The translations under genes and the position numbers were made by a program. Shown here piece after piece: positions 2,440 to 64,000 of a stretch of DNA of 64,000 nt. This DNA is from Octopus sinensis (taxonomy: Eukaryota), in NCBI RefSeq assembly GCF_006345805.1, contig NC_043023.1:12772001-12836000 (forward strand). The letters are read 5' to 3'. Each line of letters opens with the position of its first letter. Positions within the stretch are counted from its first letter, which is position 1. The notes beneath the pieces were generated by a model, which saw only the letters and a list, made by a program, of their open reading frames with translations, had not been told where the DNA came from and ran no database searches.

Positions 2440-3400
2440 TCATCAATACATCAAACCCATCTTATAAAGGAAATCTGTGAAAAACAACGGCAAAATATTT
2501 CTTCTGGACGATGGAATTAACAGCAACAATTTGAAGTCTTTGCTGTCTGGAATATAGAGGAGATGATTGTTTTACAGGTTAAATAAGCTTGGATAACTTT
2601 ACAAAGGGGTAGACAATTGTCACCTCTTCATTTAGATATTAAGCAAAATCACAGATGAAAGAAGCATAGCATTAAATTATTCTCTGAAAATAGCAACACA
2701 AATATATTCATAGAAATGAATTTTTTTCCTATTTCAGAATATCATACCATGTTGATTTAAAAGAAATTTCTTCATTCAGATGTGTGTCTGATATTTTGAT
2801 TGACTTTCATCAATTAAAGGAAGACCATATATTCATAAGACACATTCATCAAAACATCAGCTTCTTTATATAAATAAAATCTTCGACGAACGATGGGGAA
2901 ATATTTCTTCTGGATGATGGAATTAAGAGCAACATTTTTTTTGCCATCTGGAATGTAGAGATGATGATGAACCTACAGGTTAAGTTTGAGTAACTTTACA
3001 AAAGAGTTAACCAATTTATATCTTCTGTTTTAGATATTAAGCAAGATCACCAATGAAAGTAACATAACGTTTAATTATTCTCTGATGCATTTGAACACAA
3101 ACATTCATAGAAATGAAACAGATACTATCATTGTGATATGTATAACGAAATTATTCTCTCATAATGAATAATTCAACTAAAGCAAAAGTCTCTGATAAAA
3201 GAGGGAAGCTATATCACTGTGATCATCATCATCATCATCATCGTTTAACGTCCCCTTTCTATGCTAGCATGGGTTGGACGGTTCAACTGGGGTCTGGCAA
3301 GCCCGAAGGCTACACCAGGCCAGTCAGATCTGGCAGTGTTTCTACAGCTGGATGCCCTTCCTAACGCCAACCACTCCGAGAGTGTAGTGGCTGATTTTAT

Positions 3401-3680
3401 GTGCCACCGACACAGGTGCCAGACGAGGCTGGCAGACGGCCACGCTCGGATGGTGTTTTTTATGTGCCACCGACACAGGTGCCAGACGAGGCTGGCAGAC
3501 GGCCACGCTCGGATATGGTGTTTTCGGTGTTTTTCTTATGTGCCACCGACACAGGTGCCAGACGAGGCTGGCGAACGGCTACGATCGGATGGTGTTTGTT
3601 ACGTACCCAAGGCACGGAGGCCAGTCGATGCGTTACCGGCTACGGTCCCTTTCGGATGGTTTTCTTATGTGCCACCGGCA
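3401..3680 (-). repeat. About 63-bp tandem repeats in the RTE 3' UTR
   Basis: gtgccaccgacacaggtgccagacgaggctggc recurs at 3401, 3464 and 3540; the paralog at 48674-49020 has one extra unit. Confidence 0.85.
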
Positions 3681-3857
3681 CTGGTAACACAAGGATACAA
3701 ATTCCATTGATGTTCATCTATTTTGATTTGGTTTGACTTGATTCGATTTGACTTTGATTTGATTTGCCTCAACAGATCTTCACAAGTGTCACAAGCAGGA
3801 AATTATGCACAGGTGGACTGACTACGTCCCAGGTAGGGGCCACGGGTTATGGCTTCA

Positions 3858-4495
3858 CTAGTCTTGCCGGGTCTTCTCACGCACAGCATACTTCCATAGG
3901 TCTCGGTCTCTAGTCATTTCCATGGTGAGACCTAACGTTCGAAGGTCGTGCTTCACCACTTCGTCCCAGGTTTTCCTGGGTCTACCTCTTCCACGGGTTC
4001 CCTCAACTGCTAGGGATTGGCACTTTCTCACACACCTATCTTCATCCATTCTTGCCACATGACCATACCAGCGCAATCGTCTCTCTTGCACGCAACAACT
4101 GATGCTTCTTAGGTACAACATTTCTCTCAGGGAACTAACACTCTGTCGAGTAAGTACACTGACATTACACATCCATCGGAGCATACTGGCTTCATTCCTC
4201 ATGAGCTTACGCATGTCCTCAGCAGTCATGGCCCATGTTTCACTGCCATGTAGCATGGCAGTTCGAACACATGCATCATACAGTCTGCCCTTTACTCTGA
4301 GCGAGAGGCCTTTAGTCACCAGCAGAGGTAAGAGCTCCCTAAACTTTGCCCAGGCTATTCTTATTCTAGCAGTTACACTCTCAGCGCACCCACCCCCACT
4401 ACTGACTTGGTCACCTAGATAACGGAAGCTATCAACTACATCTAATTTTTCCCCCTGGAAAGTGACGGAAGTTGTTTTCTGCAGATTTTCGGAGG

Positions 4496-4499
<4 letters not shown>
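3858..4499 (-). CDS. RTE ORF C-terminal part (RT motif 7 and thumb region)
   Basis: VDSFRYLG, RIRIAWAKFREL, LHGSETW, RLRWYGHVARM. Confidence 0.85.
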
Positions 4500-5809
<1,310 letters not shown>

Positions 5810-5812
5810 TGA

Positions 5813-7090
<1,278 letters not shown>

Positions 7091-7119
7091 TAATCGTATC
7101 AATATCAAAATTTGTTACA

Positions 7120-9966: not shown

Positions 9967-10020
9967 CCAAGAGGTATCCAAGCATTGTTCTTTAGATGAG
10001 AGAGAAGTGTGAAGGAAGGA

Positions 10021-10177
10021 CAATGATTGGACAGGAGAGAAAATGACGTCAGAAACGGATGGAAGTGCAACGGCCTGACGTCACATCAGGAAGATATAAG
10101 TCAAAGATGCCTTCTTTCTTTCGGTGTCTGCGACGGGGTCCAGTTCGTGCGCTGGAAACGGTCGTAGATTAGAATAT
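10021..10177 (+). promoter_or_regulatory. Putative promoter and non-coding exon 1 of ZNF B
   Basis: ATTGG (reverse CCAAT), TGACGTCA twice, GGAAGTG, GATATAAG, a CpG-rich stretch, then donor GTGAGT at 10178. Confidence 0.65.
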
Positions 10178-10431
10178 GTGAGTGTATATATTCTATATTA
10201 CCTTGAAGGTAAAATCGTTGACAGAATGGGACAAAGAAGACACAGGAACGAAACGAACCAGTCATAGAAAATTGAAGAACTATAACCATATAAAGGGATA
10301 TAACTTTCCTTAATTAATTAATTAAGGTGCTTAATTAACGATCGTTGACTCGTTGTTTGTATCTGAATACGGTAAGTTGACAACGATTTATTTTAAGGCT
10401 GTAATGATGATGATAATACCAATAATAATAA

Positions 10432-10643
10432 GGTACTACTAGCGAACAGTGGTCCCGGTGCGTGCACTCGCGTATCCGCGCTTGCTAGTCGTAAGTAGTC
10501 GAATCTACAATTTTGAAAACTAAGTAAATACATTATTTTTGTAAACAAACTAAGGTTAGGTTTAAAAAGTCGTTGTAGGATCGACTACATACGACTAGCT
10601 AGCGCGAGTGCGCGCACCGGGGCCACTGTTCGCTTGTAGTACC
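10432..10643. mobile_element. Fold-back MITE, GGTACTACTAGCGAACAGTGG...CCACTGTTCGCTAGTAGTACC type
   Basis: Long TIRs seen directly. One copy sits in intron 1 of each promoter-bearing unit (about 17802-18018, 23022-23221, 32132-32348, 41312-41499 partly deleted, 55249-55464). Confidence 0.75.
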
Positions 10644-11706: not shown

Positions 11707-11989
11707 ATACAAATATATTTGTAGTGAATCTTGCACGCATGAAGTAGATTGGATCCACCATAGCCAAAATTTTAATTAACCCTTCACCAAAATTTTTCAT
11801 ATGGCAGAACAATAGAGAAATCTCAATACAGAATGTTGTAAAAGTTTCAATGCCTCAATGGATTCTGACCCCTGCAAACATAGACATTAAATGGACGACA
11901 GTGTTGATGTTGTAAGATTTGCAATGTTGAATTACTATGTCGTTTAATGATTCTCTTTATCTCACTGCTTCTTTTTTTTTCTATTTCAG

Positions 11990-12819
11990 AATATAACATC
12001 CTGTTGATATGAAAGAAATTACTTCATTCAGATGTGCCTCTGATATTCTATAAGCTCCCATCAACCAAAGGAAGATGATATATTTATAAGGAGCATTCAT
12101 CAATACATCAAACTCATCTCATAAAGGAAATCTGTGAAAAACAACAGCAAAATATTTCTTCTGGACGATGGAATTAACAGCAACAATTTGAAGTCTTTGC
12201 TGTCTGGAATATAGAGGAGATGATTGTTTTACAGGTTAATTAAGCTTGGATAACTTTACAAAGGGGCAGGCAATTGTCACCTCTTGATTTAGATATTAAG
12301 CAAGATCACAGATGAAAGAAGCATAGCATTAAATTATTCTCTGAAAATAGCAACACAAATATATTCATAGAAATGAATTTTTTTCCTATTTCAGAATATC
12401 ATACCATGTTGATTTAAAAGAAATTTCTTCATTCAGATGTGTGTCTGATATTTTGATTGACTTTCATCAATTAAAGGAAGACCATATATTCATAAGACAC
12501 ATTCATCAAAAGTTCAGCCTCTTTATATAAAAAAATCTTTGATGAATGATGGGGAAGTATTTCTTCTGGATGATGGAGTTAAGAGCAACATGTTTTTTGC
12601 CATCTGGAATGTAGAGATGATGATGAACCTACAGGTTAAGTTTGAGTAACTTTACAAAAGAGTTAACCAATTTATATCTTCTGTTTTAGATATTAAGCAA
12701 GATCACCAATGAAAGTAACATAACGTTTAATTATTCTCTGATGCATTTGAACACAAACATTCATAGAAATGAAACAGATACTATCATTGTGATATGTATA
12801 ACGAAATTATTCTCTCATA
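11990..12819 (+). other. Two tandem ~400-bp decayed leader segments, each after a splice acceptor (putative 5' UTR of ZNF B)
   Basis: Acceptors tttctatttcag|aatat at 11989 and 12394. Both copies share cttcattcagatgtg, aaatatttcttctgga, acaggttaa and ttagatattaagcaa. The same arrangement precedes each locus (first copy 5'-truncated in A and G). Confidence 0.7.
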
Positions 12820-13788
12820 ATGAATAATTCAACTAAAGCAAAAATCTCTGATAAAAGAGAGAAGCCATATCACTGTGATATCTGTGGTAAGTCATTCTCT
12901 AAAAGTGGCAACTTAACTAGTCACAAACGTGTTCATACAGGAGAGAAACCATATCAGTGTGATATCTGTGGTAAATCATTTTCTCGAAGTGCTGACTTAC
13001 CTAAACACAAATGTACTCATACAGGAGAGAAACCATATCAGTGTGATATCTGTGGTAAATCATTTACTAGAAATAGTACTTTGACTAGTCATATACGTAT
13101 TCATACTGGGGAAAAACCATATCAGTGTGATATCTGTGGCAAATCCTTTTCTGAGCCTTCTTCTTTAAAAGGGCACAAACGTATTCATACAGGTGAGCAG
13201 CCATATCATTGCGATATCTGTGGTGTATCATTCTCTGAAAATAGCCATTTAACCAGACACCTACGTATTCATACTGGGGAAAAACCATATCAATGTGATA
13301 TCTGTGGTAAGTCATTTTCTGGTAATAGCAATTTAATCAGTCACAGACGTATTCATACTGGGGAAAAACCATATCAATGTGATATCTGTGGTGCATCATT
13401 CTCTGAAAATAGCCCTTTAACCAGACACCTACGTATTCATACAGGAGAGAAGACATATTGTTGTAATATCTGTGGTAAATCATTTTCTCAGCCCTCTACT
13501 TTAAAAGGGCACAAACGTATTCATACGGGTGAGAAGCCATATCGGTGTGATATCTGTGGTAAATCATTTTCTCAGCCCTCTACTTTAAAAGGGCACAAAC
13601 GTATTCATACAGGTGAGAAGCCATATCAATGTGATATCTGTGGTGAATCATTCTCTTACAGTAGTGACTTACCTAAACATAAACGTATTCATATTGGGGA
13701 AAAACCATATCATTGTGATATTTGTGGTGAGTCATTCTCTCAAAAACGCCACTTAAGTACACATATGAGTATTCATACACAGGTGTAA
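12820..13788 (+). CDS. C2H2 zinc-finger protein B, 322 aa, 11 fingers, intact
   Basis: Uninterrupted CxxC-x12-HxxxH repeats with TGEKPY linkers; ends with the family terminal finger STHMSIHTQV*. Confidence 0.92.
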   Translation: MNNSTKAKISDKREKPYHCDICGKSFSKSGNLTSHKRVHTGEKPYQCDICGKSFSRSADLPKHKCTHTGEKPYQCDICGKSFTRNSTLTSHIRIHTGEKPYQCDICGKSFSEPSSLKGHKRIHTGEQPYHCDICGVSFSENSHLTRHLRIHTGEKPYQCDICGKSFSGNSNLISHRRIHTGEKPYQCDICGASFSENSPLTRHLRIHTGEKTYCCNICGKSFSQPSTLKGHKRIHTGEKPYRCDICGKSFSQPSTLKGHKRIHTGEKPYQCDICGESFSYSSDLPKHKRIHIGEKPYHCDICGESFSQKRHLSTHMSIHTQV

Positions 13789-14312: not shown

Positions 14313-14420
14313 GATTCTCTATTGTTTCCTGTGACAGACAGCTGTTCTTTTGTGTACTGGACATTTTCAATGTTTTGTTATTAAACATTTTGTAAAAATA
14401 AAATTCTTTGTGCATGCTTA

Positions 14421-16596: not shown

Positions 16597-17386
16597 ACTG
16601 TTCTCTGGGAATAATGGGGATCATTTCGGTTTGAACAGCAGGTTTTAAAATTTCTAGGTAACTAAAAAAATGTTTAACTTCGTATACAGATAGAATGTAT
16701 TTATAAAGCATCTTTTTCGTTGGCTCTATTGAGAAAATTCTGTAGTTTGTAACATATTTGTTGTTTTTATTTCTGCAATTCCAAGCAATCAATGACGTCT
16801 ATTGAGGTAAAAAAAAAAACATTATGTGCCTTATGAATATGTCCCTCGTTTAAGAAACAGATTGGGTTTATTTACATTTTTGAAGAAAAAAAGATACACT
16901 TCCTCCACCCCTAACACTAACACTGATTGAAATGCAATAGATCGATACTAGGGTCATAATTATGGGTGACAATTTCATATGACACCGCTACAAAAAACTG
17001 CCGGTCAAACCGAAAAGATCCTTTTCTTTTTACACAAAGTAAATAATAAGGCGATGCTTCCATATATAAGTACGCACGTGACTTTGTTTACATTTGTGAA
17101 GATAACAGAAAGCCTTTTCTCCCCACTTCTAACCCTAACACGTGGAAATCATTTTAAAAAGCTGCCGTTCAAACCGAAAAGATCCCAAATATCTTCCACA
17201 CTGTAGAATTTTCTCAATAAAGCCAAGAGAAACAGATGTTTTATAAACACATTCTACCAGTATACGAAGTTTAAAAGTGTTTAGTTACGTGGAAATTATT
17301 TTCAAAAACTGCCGGTCAAACCGAAAAGATCCCCAAAAGGTATCCAAGCATTGTTCTTTAGATGAGAGAGAAGTGTGAAGGAAGGA

Positions 17387-20534: not shown

Positions 20535-21755
20535 ATGAATAATTCAACTAAAGCAAAAATCTCTGATAAAAGAGAGAAGCCATATCACTGTGATATCTGT
20601 GGTAAGTCATTCTCTGAAAGTGGTAATTTAAGAAGGCACAGACGTGTTCATACTGGAGAAAAACCATATCAGTGTGATATCTGTGGTAAATCATTTTCTG
20701 AAAATAGCACTTTAACTCATCACAAATTTATTCATACTGGGGAAAAGCCGCATCAGTGTGATATCTGTGGTAAATCATTTTCTCAAAATAGCACTTTAAC
20801 TCATCACAAATTTATTCATACTGGGGAAAAGCCGCATCAGTGTGATATCTGTGGTAAATCATTTTCTCAAAATAGCACTTTAACTCATCACAAATTTATT
20901 CATACTGGGGAAAAGCCGCATCAGTGTGATATCTGTAGTAAATCATTTTCTCAAAATAGCAATTTAACTCATCACAAATTTATTCATACTGGGGAAAAGC
21001 CGCATAAGTGTGATACCTGTAGTAAATCATTTTCTCAAAAAATTGAATTGACTGTCCATAAACGTATTCATACTGGTGAAAAACCATATCAGTGTGATAT
21101 CTGTTGTAAATCATTTTCTCAAAGTGCTACCTTAGCTACACACAAACGTACTCATACAGGAGAGAAACCATATCAGTGTGATATCTGTGGTAAATCATTT
21201 TCTCGAAGTGCTGACTTACCTAAACACAAACGTACTCATACAGGAGAGAAACCATATCAGTGTGATATCTGTGGTAAATCATTTTCTCGAAGAGCTGATT
21301 TAATTAGACACAAACGTACTCATACAGGAGAGAAGCCATACCATTGTGATATCTGTGGTGAATCATTTTCTAGAAGTAACATTTTAACTGATCACAAACT
21401 TATTCATACAGGAGAGAAGCCATACCATTGTGATATCTGTGGTAAATCATTCACTACAAATAGTAATTTGACTAGTCATATACGTATTCATACTGGGGAA
21501 AAACCATATCAGTGTGATATCTGTGGTGAATCATTCTCTGAGATTGGCACTTTAACCCGACACGTACGTACTCATACAGGAGAGAAACCATATCAGTGTG
21601 ATATCTGTGGTAAATCATTTTCTCGAAATGGTAACTTAAATAAACACAAACGTACACATACTGGAGAAAAGCCCCATCATTGTAATATCTGTGGTAAATC
21701 ATTTTCTAGAAGTAACAGTTTAACAGTTCACAATCGTATTCATACAGGAGAGTAG
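20535..21755 (+). CDS. C2H2 zinc-finger protein C, 406 aa, 14 fingers, TAG in a linker; array 3' end deleted at about 21890
   Basis: From the ORF track. One more finger and part of another follow the stop, then MITE sequence; the terminal finger and RTE tail are missing. Confidence 0.85.
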
Positions 21756-25803: not shown

Positions 25804-27030
25804 ATGAATAATTCAACTAAAGCAAAAATCTCTGGTAAAAGAGAAAAGCCATATCACTGTGATATCTGTGGTAAGTCATTCTCTCAAAGTTGTAATCTAA
25901 GAAGGCACAAACGTGTTCATACTGGAGAAAAACCATTTCAGTGTGATATCTGTGGTAAATCATTTTCTGAAAACAGCACTTTAACTCGTCACAAATTTAT
26001 TCATACTGGGGAAAAGCCGCATCAGTGTGATATCTGTGGTAAATCATTTTCTCGAAGTGCTGACTTACCTAAACACAAACGTACTCATACAGGAGAGAAT
26101 CCATATCAGTGTGATATCTGTGGTAAGTCATTTTCTGGTAATAGCAATTTAATCAGTCACAGACGTATTCATACAGGAGAGAAACCATATCAGTGTGATA
26201 TCTGTGGTAAATCATTCTCTACCAGTGGTGTCTTAAATAAACACAAACGTACACATACAGGAGAAAAGCCCCATCATTGTAATATCTGTGGTAAATCATT
26301 TTCTAGAAGTGACAGTTTAACTGATCACAGACGTATTCATACAGGAGAGAAGCCATACCATTGTGATATCTGTGGTAAATCATTTTCCCATAATTCTACT
26401 TTAAACAAGCACAAACGTATTCATACAGGTGAGAAGCCATATCACTGCGATATCTGTGGTCAATCATTCTCTGAAAATAGCACTTTAACTAGACACCTAC
26501 GTATTCATACAGGAGAGAAGCCATATCATTGTAATATCTGTGGTAAATCATTCTCTTACAGTAGTGACTTACCTAAACACAAACGTATACACACTGGCAA
26601 AAAACCATATCACTGTGATATCTGTGGTAATTCATTTTCTTGTAATAGAAATTTAATCAGTCACAAACGTATTCATACAGATGAAAAACCATATCACTGT
26701 GATATCTGTGGTAAGTCATTTTCTGGTAATAGCATTTTAATCATTCACAGACGTGTTCATACAGGAGAGAAACCATATCAGTGTGATATCTGTAGTAAAT
26801 CATTTTCTGACAAAAGCTCTTTAACTCATCACAAATTTATTCATACTGGGGAAAAGCCGCATCAGTGTGATATCTGTGGTAAATCATTCTCTCAAATTAG
26901 TCACTTGACTCAACACAAACGTGGTCATACAGGAGAGAAACCATATCAGTGTGATATCTGTGGTAAATCATTTTCTCGAAGAGCTGATTTAACTGAACAC
27001 AAACGTACTCATACAGGAGAGAAACCATAG
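25804..27030 (+). CDS. C2H2 zinc-finger protein D, 408 aa, 14 fingers; the array continues to 27860 (about 24 finger units)
   Basis: From the ORF track. A 3-bp deletion (tatcag to tag) makes the stop. Five more finger units stay in frame before a frameshift at about 27460. Confidence 0.85.
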   Translation: MNNSTKAKISGKREKPYHCDICGKSFSQSCNLRRHKRVHTGEKPFQCDICGKSFSENSTLTRHKFIHTGEKPHQCDICGKSFSRSADLPKHKRTHTGENPYQCDICGKSFSGNSNLISHRRIHTGEKPYQCDICGKSFSTSGVLNKHKRTHTGEKPHHCNICGKSFSRSDSLTDHRRIHTGEKPYHCDICGKSFSHNSTLNKHKRIHTGEKPYHCDICGQSFSENSTLTRHLRIHTGEKPYHCNICGKSFSYSSDLPKHKRIHTGKKPYHCDICGNSFSCNRNLISHKRIHTDEKPYHCDICGKSFSGNSILIIHRRVHTGEKPYQCDICSKSFSDKSSLTHHKFIHTGEKPHQCDICGKSFSQISHLTQHKRGHTGEKPYQCDICGKSFSRRADLTEHKRTHTGEKP

Positions 27031-34263: not shown

Positions 34264-35535
34264 ATGAATAATTCAACTAAAGCAAAAATCTCTGATAAAA
34301 GAGAGAAGCCATATCAGTGTGATATCTGTGGTAACTCATTCTCTAAAAGTGGTAATCTAAGTAGGCACATACGTGTTCATACTGGAGACAAACCTTATAA
34401 GTGTGATATCTGTAGTAAATCATTTTCTGACAATAGCTCTTTAACTCATCACAAATTTATTCATACTGGGGAAAAGCCGCATCAGTGTGATATCTGTGGT
34501 AAATCATTCTCTCAAATTAGTCACTTGACTGAACACAAACGTGGTCATACAGGAGAGAAGCCATACCATTGTGATATCTGTGGTAAATCATTTTCTAGAA
34601 GTAACATTTTATCTGATCACAAACTTATTCATACAGGAGAGAAGCCATTCCATTGTGATATCTGTGGTAAGTCATTTTCTCGAAGAGCTGATTTACCTAG
34701 ACACAAACGTACCCATACAGGAGAGAAACCATATCAGTGTGATATCTGTGGTAAATCATTCTCTTCCAGTGGTGACTTAAATAAACACAAACGTACACAT
34801 ACAGGAGAAAAGCCCCATCATTGTGATATCTGTGGTAAATCATTCACTAGAAATAGTGATTTGACTAGTCATATACGTATTCATACTGGGGAAAAACCAT
34901 ATCAGTGTGATATCTGTGGCAAATCATTTTCTGAGCCTTCTTCTTTAAAGGGGCACAAACGTATTCATACAGGTCAGAAGCCATATCATTGCGATATCTG
35001 TGGTAAATCATTCTCTGAAAATAGCAATTTCACCAGACACCTACGTATTCATACAGGAGAGAAGCCATATTATTGTGATATCTGTGGTAAATCATTTTCT
35101 CAGCCTTCTGCTTTAACCAGACACCTACGTATCCATACAGGAGAGAAGCCATATCAGTGTGATATCTGTGGTAAATCATTCTCTTACAGTAGTGACTTAC
35201 CTAAACACAAACGTATACACACTGGGGAAAAAGAATATCACTGTAATATCTGTGGTGAATCATTTTCTTGTAATAGCCATTTAACCAGACACAAACATAT
35301 TCATACAGGAGAGAAGCCATATCATTGTGACATCTGCGGTAAATCATTTTCCCATAATTCTGCTTTAAAAGGGCACAAACGTATTCATACAGGAGAGAAG
35401 CCATATCATTGTGACATCTGTGGTAAATCATTCTCTCACAGTAGTAACTTGCACAAACATAAACGTATTCATATTGGGGAAAAACCATATCATTGTGATA
35501 TTTGTGGTGAGTCATTCTCTCAAAAAACCACTTAA
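34264..35535 (+). CDS. C2H2 zinc-finger protein E, 423 aa, 14 complete fingers; terminal finger frameshifted
   Basis: From the ORF track. caaaaaaccactt versus caaaaacgccactt in B; the ancestral stop is at 35565-35567. Confidence 0.88.
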
Positions 35536-43679: not shown

Positions 43680-45166
<1,487 letters not shown>

Positions 45167-48437: not shown

Positions 48438-52012
<3,575 letters not shown>

Positions 52013-58001: not shown

Positions 58002-59662
<1,661 letters not shown>

Positions 59663-62982: not shown

Positions 62983-63124
62983 TATTGTTGTATTTTGACA
63001 GTGATAAAGTTACACATGTGGGTGAATACCTACATGTGTATGGATGTAGCTTTTTCAAGAGAATGGTTTAGCACAGATGTCACACTGACCTGGCTTCTCT
63101 CCTGCAGAATTGCATTTATGTACA

Positions 63125-63751
63125 TTCATTCATCATTGTTTGACCGTGGTCGAGACAATGGAATTTACCATGCTACGCCAGACTTCACGGTCCATCATAG
63201 CATTACGGAGGTCCTGTTGCTGGATGCCTGTATCCCTGGAGATTACATCAGGGTAGGAGAGTGTGCGCCCTCTGGTATTGCGACCGTGGTCGAGACAATG
63301 GAATTTACCATGCTACGCCAGACCTCACGGTCCATCATGGCATTACGGAGGTCCTGCTGCTGGATGCCTGTATCCATGGAGATTACATTAGGGTAGGAGA
63401 GTGTGCGACTCTGGCATTGTGAGTAGATGGCTTCCAGAGAAGAGTAGAAATTACCTCCTTTTCAGCTCTACAACAATGTCCAGCAAACTGGACTCTCCAA
63501 CCTTTCACAAGAGATGACACAGGTGGTAGTTTCCCATATATTTGCATTTTGGTTGGATGGCGCTTCCACGAGAGATTTTGAGCTCTCATAAGGAGGCGAG
63601 TGTAAGTTCCATCCAACCGCCTCTCAAGCTTCTTTGATAACGTCCAGGTTTCTGAGCTATATAGTAGAATTGGTTCGACTGTGGCTTTGAAGATTTCAAG
63701 TTTGAAGTCTCTACTTAGGTTTGATGACCAGATCTTATGCATGTTATGCAT
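63125..63751 (-). mobile_element. 3' fragment of a second RTE/RTEX-like LINE family with a duplicated ~140-bp terminal segment
   Basis: KLEIFKATVEPILLYSSETWTL...QFAGHCCR; 63142-63268 is repeated at 63282-63407. Confidence 0.75.
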
Positions 63752-63824
63752 AAGATGACTTGCATAAGATTTATGTACACTTAAGTTAGATCTACGAGAG
63801 AATGAATCATAGATACCAACTTCA

Positions 63825-64000
63825 AAATAAAAATCAAATGGGGATTGTAGTTAAGATACCCGTGCCGGTGACACATAAAAAGCACCATCCGAACGTGGCA
63901 GATGCTAGTGCCGCCTGACTGGCGTCCGTGTCGGTGACATGTAAAAGCACCAACCGATCGTGGCCGCTTGCTAGCCTCCTCTGGCACGTAAAAAACACCT
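63825..64000 (+). mobile_element. Start of another RTE 3' UTR, running off the window
   Basis: aaaagcaccatccg sub-repeats. Confidence 0.7.

What the first reader, a model, noticed from the sequence alone, without database searches (positions are those of the whole stretch)
12700..12870. The start codon appears to have arisen inside a dead zinc finger
Seen: upstream of the ORF the DNA reads tat cat tgt gat atg ... aaa tta ttc tct cat aat [G] aat aat tca act aaa gca aaa atc tct gat aaa aga gag aag cca tat. Without the single G this is [26 protein letters not shown], which aligns without gaps to the canonical [22 protein letters not shown]. Another decayed finger lies just upstream (aattattctctgat..gaacacaaacattcatagaaatgaa). 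All eight loci share this. Inference: the family descends from a gene whose 5' coding part died and was rescued by a new ATG, giving finger-only proteins with no visible effector domain.
Basis: partly seen in the sequence, partly recalled or inferred. Interest (0 to 1): 0.7.

Follow-up and report, generated by a model that had tools for sequence, protein, structure and literature searches.

The report
Start codon inside dead zinc finger
In a cluster of eight recently duplicated zinc-finger genes, likely from an octopus, the only ATG that can open the finger array lies inside a decayed finger, so the intact copies likely make finger-only proteins, a neat but ordinary by-product of gene-family turnover.

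Summary
The decayed finger is real: 12782-12867 matches the window's own finger DNA far above shuffles, and ATG 12820 lies inside it. Three corrections. It carries two extra bases, not one. The G is not provably the inserted base: dropping A12824 scores the same, so the ATG may be older than the frameshift. The eight copies are recent tandem duplicates, about 3% apart, hence one event; four are broken. Indirect evidence favours use of the ATG. It is the only Met able to open the arrays, an in-frame stop lies 12-21 nt upstream with no AG between, zinc ligands are under purifying selection, and six copies keep a nearly invariant promoter-like block and splice donor 2.7 kb upstream. Against it: no read or proteomic evidence, no annotated protein with this N-terminus, 4-23 upstream ATGs, and no ortholog showing the ancestral state. 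Short leaders without an effector domain also occur in annotated octopus finger proteins, so finger-only is not special. Verdict: a new member of the known coleoid C2H2 expansion with a legible start-codon history. Interest 0.3.

The parts
10000..10105 (+). Promoter-like block: two TGACGTCA sites (10044, 10076), ATTGG at 10026, CpG-rich; function predicted
   Evidence: All 12 TGACGTCA sites of the window are pairs in this block in 6 loci; CpG o/e 1.4 against 0.69; with the next part, 3 of 177 variable columns against 153 of 1224 background, p 1.2e-6
10106..10177 (+). Predicted non-coding first exon, followed by GTGAGT donor at 10178; 5' boundary approximate
   Evidence: Donor identical in 6 of 6 loci; its one ATG (10107) meets a TAG before the donor (read)
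11973..12377 (+). Copy A of a ~405-bp tandem pair: strong acceptor at 11989, finger remnant at 12330-12369; possibly a non-coding exon
   Evidence: 75% identical to copy B; 18 of 20 pyrimidines before the AG; 17 of 381 variable columns, p 2.3e-6; remnant 0 of 200 shuffles
12378..12773 (+). Copy B: head evolves at background rate (likely intron); acceptor at 12689 is the predicted entry to the finger exon
   Evidence: 35 of 288 variable columns, p 0.92; acceptor at 12394 lost in 1 of 6 loci, AG at 12689 kept in 6 of 6
12725..12781 (+). Heavily decayed second finger-like stretch
   Evidence: Not significant alone (27 of 200); supported through its twin in copy A
12709..12827 (+). Four upstream ATGs (12709, 12741, 12769, 12794); the 12741 frame overlaps the main ATG, the 12794 frame stops on it (TAATG)
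12782..12867 (+). Decayed C2H2 finger, 84+2 nt; second Cys and both His lost; one extra base near 12801-12806 and one near 12818-12825
12820..12822 (+). ATG inside the decayed finger, A at -3; predicted start
   Evidence: Only Met in 4 of 5 ORFs examined, one more at residue 316 in the fifth; in-frame stop 12-21 nt upstream and no AG between in 8 of 8 loci
12820..13788 (+). ORF of 322 aa: 16-residue finger-derived leader plus 11 C2H2 fingers; the only copy that reaches the family's terminal HTQV stop in frame
20535..21755 (+). Paralog, 406 aa, 14 complete fingers, stop in a linker
25804..27030 (+). Paralog, 408 aa, 14 complete fingers, more fingers beyond the stop
34264..35535 (+). Paralog, 423 aa, 14 complete fingers, frameshift in the last finger
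43698..44213 (+). Broken paralog, 171 aa, 2 complete fingers
3164..7093 (+). Broken paralog: LINE-type insertion (about 3224-5620) in the first finger
48438..52012 (+). Broken paralog with the same insertion (about 48497-50941)
58002..59662 (+). Broken paralog, 23-aa ORF, many frame breaks

Best explanation
This is a young tandem cluster of C2H2 zinc-finger genes, likely from an octopus, whose only in-frame ATG lies in the middle of a decayed finger, so the intact copies likely make DNA-binding proteins of 11-14 fingers behind a 16-residue leader of finger origin. Shown: the decayed finger, its two extra bases, the sole Met, the upstream stop, one recent origin of all eight copies. Inferred: in the ancestor a +1 base near 12818-12825 cut the array off from its old start while leaving an ATG in frame at finger codon 13-14 (made by the insertion, shifted into frame by it, or already an in-frame Met). 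Everything 5' of it became untranslated and decayed further, and the unit then multiplied. Predicted: transcription from the block at 10.0-10.2 kb, splicing of non-coding exons to 12690, and initiation at 12820 by leaky scanning or re-initiation past four short upstream frames. The proteins would bind DNA through variable helix residues; whether they repress transposons, as proposed for octopus fingers (PMC10547256), is untested.
For: Finger origin: 0 of 20,000 and 0 of 200 shuffles; BLASTP aligns the leader to the second half of a live finger of P0007. Sole AUG entry; every AG in the first 300 nt of the 20535 ORF has 11 or fewer pyrimidines in 20 (17 of 17), against 15-18 for the acceptors at 12689 and 11989. 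Selection on 84-nt units chosen by DNA identity alone: 5 of 372 core residues changed in long-ORF loci against 15 of 258 in broken loci. In 22 closest cross-locus pairs pS is 30.5/367; core pN 2/344 (ratio 0.07, p 2e-7), framework 30.5/817 (0.45, p 0.0015), helix 38/317 (1.44, p 0.12). These pairs are far closer than the dead finger is to the consensus, so constraint likely postdates its death. Promoter-like block and donor nearly invariant in 6 loci.
Against: No transcript, ribosome or peptide evidence. No annotated protein with this N-terminus among 5 of 5 and 3 of 3 candidates; 0 of 3 window proteins are in the collection. 4 upstream ATGs after 12690 and 23 after 11990. The leader shows no constraint: 5 distinct amino-acid-changing codons and 1 silent one across the other 7 loci. 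4 of 8 copies are broken and only 1 of 8 ends at the family's stop; some breaks may be assembly errors. Gene conversion from genes elsewhere could carry the selection signal. nhmmer E 0.46 for the dead finger. No ortholog lacking the extra base was found.
Confidence: 0.68

Rival explanations
1. The cluster is decaying: the ATG is seldom or never used, and the arrays look constrained because they were copied or converted from working genes elsewhere.
For: 4 of 8 copies broken, 1 of 8 complete; mosaic re-use of near-identical fingers among loci; many upstream ATGs; no annotated protein.
Against: Promoter-like block and donor are far more conserved than their flanks; core changes concentrate in the broken loci.
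Confidence: 0.17
2. An upstream coding exon splices into one of the AGs at 12838-12864 or inside the array, bypassing the ATG and perhaps supplying an effector domain.
For: Exon-plus-array is the usual plan of KRAB and FiNZ genes (PMC10547256, section 4); copy A is under-diverged; some frames show pN/pS near 0.5 between copies A and B.
Against: Those AGs have 6-9 pyrimidines in 20 and no C or T at -3; copy A has stops in all three forward frames; low pN/pS also appears on reverse frames; no Pfam hit in 6 of 6 stretches; best Atlas score 0.76.
Confidence: 0.07
3. The working start lies upstream, in the 45-codon frame that opens at 12690 and stops at 12825-12827; the array is reached by a +1 ribosomal shift at that stop, or in alleles lacking the extra base.
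For: The frame is intact in 4 of 4 long-ORF loci; chance of 45 open codons is 144 of 3000 shuffles for any frame and 51 of 3000 for this phase.
Against: It is broken in 2 of 8 loci; no protein bearing it was found; the chance level is marginal; no shift signal was tested.
Confidence: 0.04
4. On ancestry only: the dead unit was the atypical first finger of an octopus subfamily with a ~50-residue leader (P0005/P0007 type), and 12740-12781 is that leader's remnant rather than a second finger.
For: P0005 and P0007 share such a leader and a first finger ending in REK; P0005 residues 1-78 align with frameshifts at score 51, above 40 of 40 shuffles.
Against: The leader alone is not significant (15 of 100; P0007 32 of 100); tandem canonical fingers score higher, 60.
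Confidence: 0.2

Closest known systems
Coleoid (octopus) C2H2 zinc-finger expansions (PMC12513265, PMC9068888)
   Same: Tandem clustered genes made of linked C2H2 fingers; 7 of 8 sequence-search hits are named Octopus proteins; short leaders without a Pfam effector domain.
   Different: The leader is itself half of a dead finger; no annotated protein has it; placement in a published expansion clade was not tested.
Mammalian KRAB/SCAN zinc-finger genes that lost fingers or effector domains by degeneration (PMC2443715)
   Same: Birth-and-death clusters; finger loss by degeneration; loss of 5' coding sequence.
   Different: No KRAB or SCAN here, and no evidence that any effector domain was present; the passages read do not describe a start codon inside a dead finger.
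Cyprinid FiNZ zinc-finger genes (PMC10547256)
   Same: Lineage-specific tandem arrays.
   Different: FiNZ is a conserved acidic 28-aa peptide on its own exon; the leader here is basic, unconstrained and on the array exon.
Downstream start rescue (dAUG use, PMC3025576; proposed start shift in human FLJ33706, bioRxiv 10.1101/2023.05.28.542624)
   Same: A downstream ATG takes over and old coding DNA ends up in the 5' UTR.
   Different: Here the new start lies within a repeat unit of the same protein, so the event can be read from one genome window.

Membership tests
Tandem C2H2 (Kruppel-type) zinc-finger genes | Repeated Cx2Cx12Hx3H with TGEKP-type linkers at 84-nt period | tested here: met
   (zf-C2H2 E 4.9e-76, 11 stretches)
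Tandem C2H2 (Kruppel-type) zinc-finger genes | Purifying selection on zinc ligands, free helix positions | tested here: met
   gene conversion not excluded
Tandem C2H2 (Kruppel-type) zinc-finger genes | Protein made and binds DNA | not testable with these tools
   needs proteomics, ChIP or SELEX
Octopus-specific C2H2 expansion | Closest relatives are octopus finger proteins | tested here: met
   7 of 8 hits named Octopus; small candidate sets
Octopus-specific C2H2 expansion | Falls in a published monophyletic expansion cluster | not tested
   the published sequence sets were not seen
Octopus-specific C2H2 expansion | Nervous-tissue expression | not tested
   no expression data obtained
Degenerate C2H2 finger (12782-12867) | Finger DNA in phase with the array, ligands lost | tested here: met
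   nhmmer alone not significant
KRAB, SCAN, BTB or ZAD zinc-finger genes | N-terminal effector domain | tested here: not met
   none among the best 25 of 42 families shown, none among 16 of 16, none in 6 of 6 upstream stretches; exons further away not excluded
Start codon created by a G insertion | The G is the derived base, absent in outgroups | tested here: inconclusive
   tie with A12824; no outgroup found

The most novel reading that the evidence does not exclude
Octopus finger genes routinely reset their N-terminus by recruiting an ATG from inside a dying finger, and in this subfamily the dead fingers became a selected 5' UTR whose stop-start overlap (TAATG) and overlapping upstream frame gate translation of an effector-less DNA-binding protein.
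Probability: 0.1. Interest if true: 0.6.

Novelty: new member of a known kind. Interest (0 to 1): 0.3.

Why it matters
It is a compact, readable case of how a tandem-repeat gene survives a 5' frameshift, and it supplies a testable gene model (promoter-like block, donor, acceptors, start) for an apparently unannotated octopus subfamily. How cephalopod finger proteins act is called an open question in PMC12513265 (section 16), and transposon binding is only predicted (PMC10547256, section 6). A protein with 16 junk-derived residues plus fingers would be a clean test of whether fingers alone suffice. The parts (finger decay, downstream starts, cluster turnover) are each known, so the surprise is modest.

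Tried and rejected
No whole genome is held for this window, so the genome-wide frequency of such starts is unknown. Sequencing-run search for 11760-12900: no RNA holder listed on record; not used as evidence. No read alignment was obtained, so splicing and expression stay open. Searches for relatives bearing the leader or the upstream frame found none: generic finger hits; P0007 first looked like an ortholog but is a live-finger match; 0 of 1 candidate; 1 hit, an unrelated repetitive protein; 0 of 3; 0 metagenome matches. These are weak negatives. The heads of copies A and B show no finger similarity (122 and 112 of 200 shuffles), and no frame gives a clean sign of past coding. Leader homology to four octopus proteins was not significant in 8 of 8 tests. 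The core-residue ratios were discarded as circular (fingers picked by motif) and redone. Earlier scan notes: nothing. Albertin 2015 was not held. Eight literature searches listed no paper whose title or abstract start describes this subfamily or a start inside a dead octopus finger; the library lacks most subscription papers, and no supplements were read.

Full report
Setting. The window holds eight same-strand copies of a 5-9 kb unit ending in an array of C2H2 fingers. Of the 8 proteins returned by two searches, 7 are named Octopus proteins, so the source is taken to be an octopus; this is inferred. No genome is held.

The observation. The DNA is as quoted and a 20-base start motif occurs 8 times, all on the + strand. 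From the dead finger's first codon (12782) to the first live finger (12868) is 86 nt, not 84. Against a profile of 80 distinct live fingers the best two-base correction scores 43.0 bits; 0 of 20,000 shuffles reach it. By part, model positions 1-39 and 70-84 are significant (0 of 5000 each) and 40-69 is not (504 of 5000). A free local alignment gives 31.0 bits, 0 of 200 dinucleotide shuffles; 3 of 448 background windows score higher, of which one is a dead finger gene on the minus strand and two lie beside masked arrays and were not inspected. nhmmer, a stricter test, gave E 0.46. At conserved model positions the dead finger has 8 of 33 and 13 of 30 mismatches, against live maxima of 5 and 9. 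It is a finger, and long dead.

There is a second extra base near 12801-12806. The G is not singled out: leaving out G12822 gives 42.9 bits, A12824 43.0, and a base at 12818-12820, which leaves the Met as an in-frame finger codon, 39.3-40.5. An out-of-frame ATG already sits at this place in 3 of 80 live fingers, and codon 13 is ATT in 5 of 80. So the ATG may have been created, shifted into frame, or inherited. The second decayed finger is not significant alone (27 of 200), though its twin in the upstream duplicate is (0 of 200). Six loci with full upstream DNA differ by 2.7-3.7% in all 15 pairs, so eight copies record one event. ORFs from the ATG are 322, 406, 408 and 423 aa (11, 14, 14, 14 fingers) in four loci and 171, 66, 27 and 23 aa in the others.

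Is the ATG used? Met1 is the only Met in 4 of the 5 longest ORFs; the fifth has one more at residue 316. In 8 of 8 loci an in-frame stop lies 12 or 21 nt upstream with no AG between, so an upstream coding exon would have to splice past the ATG. The AGs there have 6-9 pyrimidines in the preceding 20 bases, against 15 and 18 for the acceptors at 12689 and 11989. Among 105 ungapped units picked by DNA identity alone, core residues are changed in 5 of 372 positions in long-ORF loci and 15 of 258 in broken loci. In 22 disjoint closest pairs from the 62 long-ORF units (44 units used), pN/pS is 0.07 for core, 0.45 for framework and 1.44 for helix positions (p 2e-7, 0.0015, 0.12); with a tighter cut, 17 pairs, the framework p rises to 0.05. 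Pairs are chosen for closeness and gene conversion is not excluded. The leader itself is unconstrained (5 amino-acid-changing codons, 1 silent), as expected for residues that are merely tolerated.

Gene model (predicted). Six loci carry, 2.5-3.2 kb upstream, a block with two TGACGTCA sites, an ATTGG box and an invariant GTGAGT donor; these are all 12 such sites in the window. It has 3 variable columns of 177, against 153 of 1224 in flanks. The motif names CRE and CCAAT are recalled, and function is untested. Upstream of the dead finger lies a ~405-bp tandem pair, 75% alike; copy A is under-diverged (17 of 381) and the head of copy B is not (35 of 288). This fits non-coding exons spliced to 12690, but recent conversion could give the same pattern. 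The predicted UTR would carry 4 upstream ATGs after 12690 and 23 after 11990; the main ATG has A at -3. One upstream frame overlaps the start and one stops on it. A 45-codon frame from 12690 is intact in the 4 long-ORF loci and broken in 2 of the 4 others; its chance level is 144 of 3000.

Relatives. No protein with this leader or the upstream frame was found, nor the DNA in metagenomes; these are weak negatives, and the ancestral state is unseen. Four annotated octopus finger proteins of the 8 fetched were scanned: leaders of 10-48 residues, zinc-finger families only. P0008's leader reads like a finger tail and linker (my reading), hinting that such starts recur, at least in gene models. A link to the P0005/P0007 leader is a lead only.

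Literature. PMC12513265 (abstract, passages, section 16) and PMC9068888 (passages) describe the cephalopod expansions and clusters. PMC10547256 (passages, sections 4 and 6) describes exon-plus-array families and predicted transposon binding in octopus. PMC2443715 (passages) reports finger and effector loss by degeneration in mammals. PMC3025576 (abstract) shows selection on downstream starts, and bioRxiv 10.1101/2023.05.28.542624 (passages) proposes a start shift that left coding DNA in a 5' UTR. No supplements were read; the sequence sets of the first and third papers may already contain these genes. Eight searches listed nothing on this case.

Verdict. A real feature with a partly right story: one ancestral 5' break, a surviving in-frame ATG inside the dead finger, then duplication and ongoing decay. 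Use of the start is likely (0.68) but unproven. New member of a known kind; interest 0.3.

Noticed in passing
window 3224-5620 and 48497-50941: The same LINE-type insertion (RVT_1, E 1e-31) sits in the first finger of two copies with no evident target duplication; its CAT-repeat end abuts the finger's GAT. The two loci are duplicates made after the insertion. Clade not tested.
   Followed up: partly
window 63030-63850 (minus strand): A dead finger gene of another type, split by about 650 bases flanked by a short direct repeat (GTACATAAA); the insert looks LINE-derived but gave no Pfam hit at E 1e-8.
   Followed up: partly
window 10000-10180 and copies at 17366, 22588, 31702, 40880, 54816: Promoter-like block 98.5-99.5% identical among six copies while flanks differ by 3-5%; holds every TGACGTCA in the window.
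   Followed up: partly
window 12235-12292 and 12635-12689: Both copies of the 405-bp unit contain a 55-58-base CAG|GT...TTTAG stretch that looks like a mini-intron; in copy B it would join a 35-codon upstream frame in phase to the 45-codon frame at 12690. Not conserved as a frame across loci by eye.
   Followed up: partly
arrays at 12868-59600: Near-identical fingers (1-8 base differences) recur in different orders in different loci, pointing to shuffling or conversion; helix positions change as fast as or faster than silent sites.
   Followed up: partly
window 10432-10643: Inverted-repeat element in the predicted first intron, present in several copies.
   Followed up: no
window 14380-14400 and matching places after other arrays: A pair of AATAAA/ATTAAA hexamers lies 540-760 bases after 6 of 6 terminal HTQV stops; candidate polyadenylation signals.
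   Followed up: no
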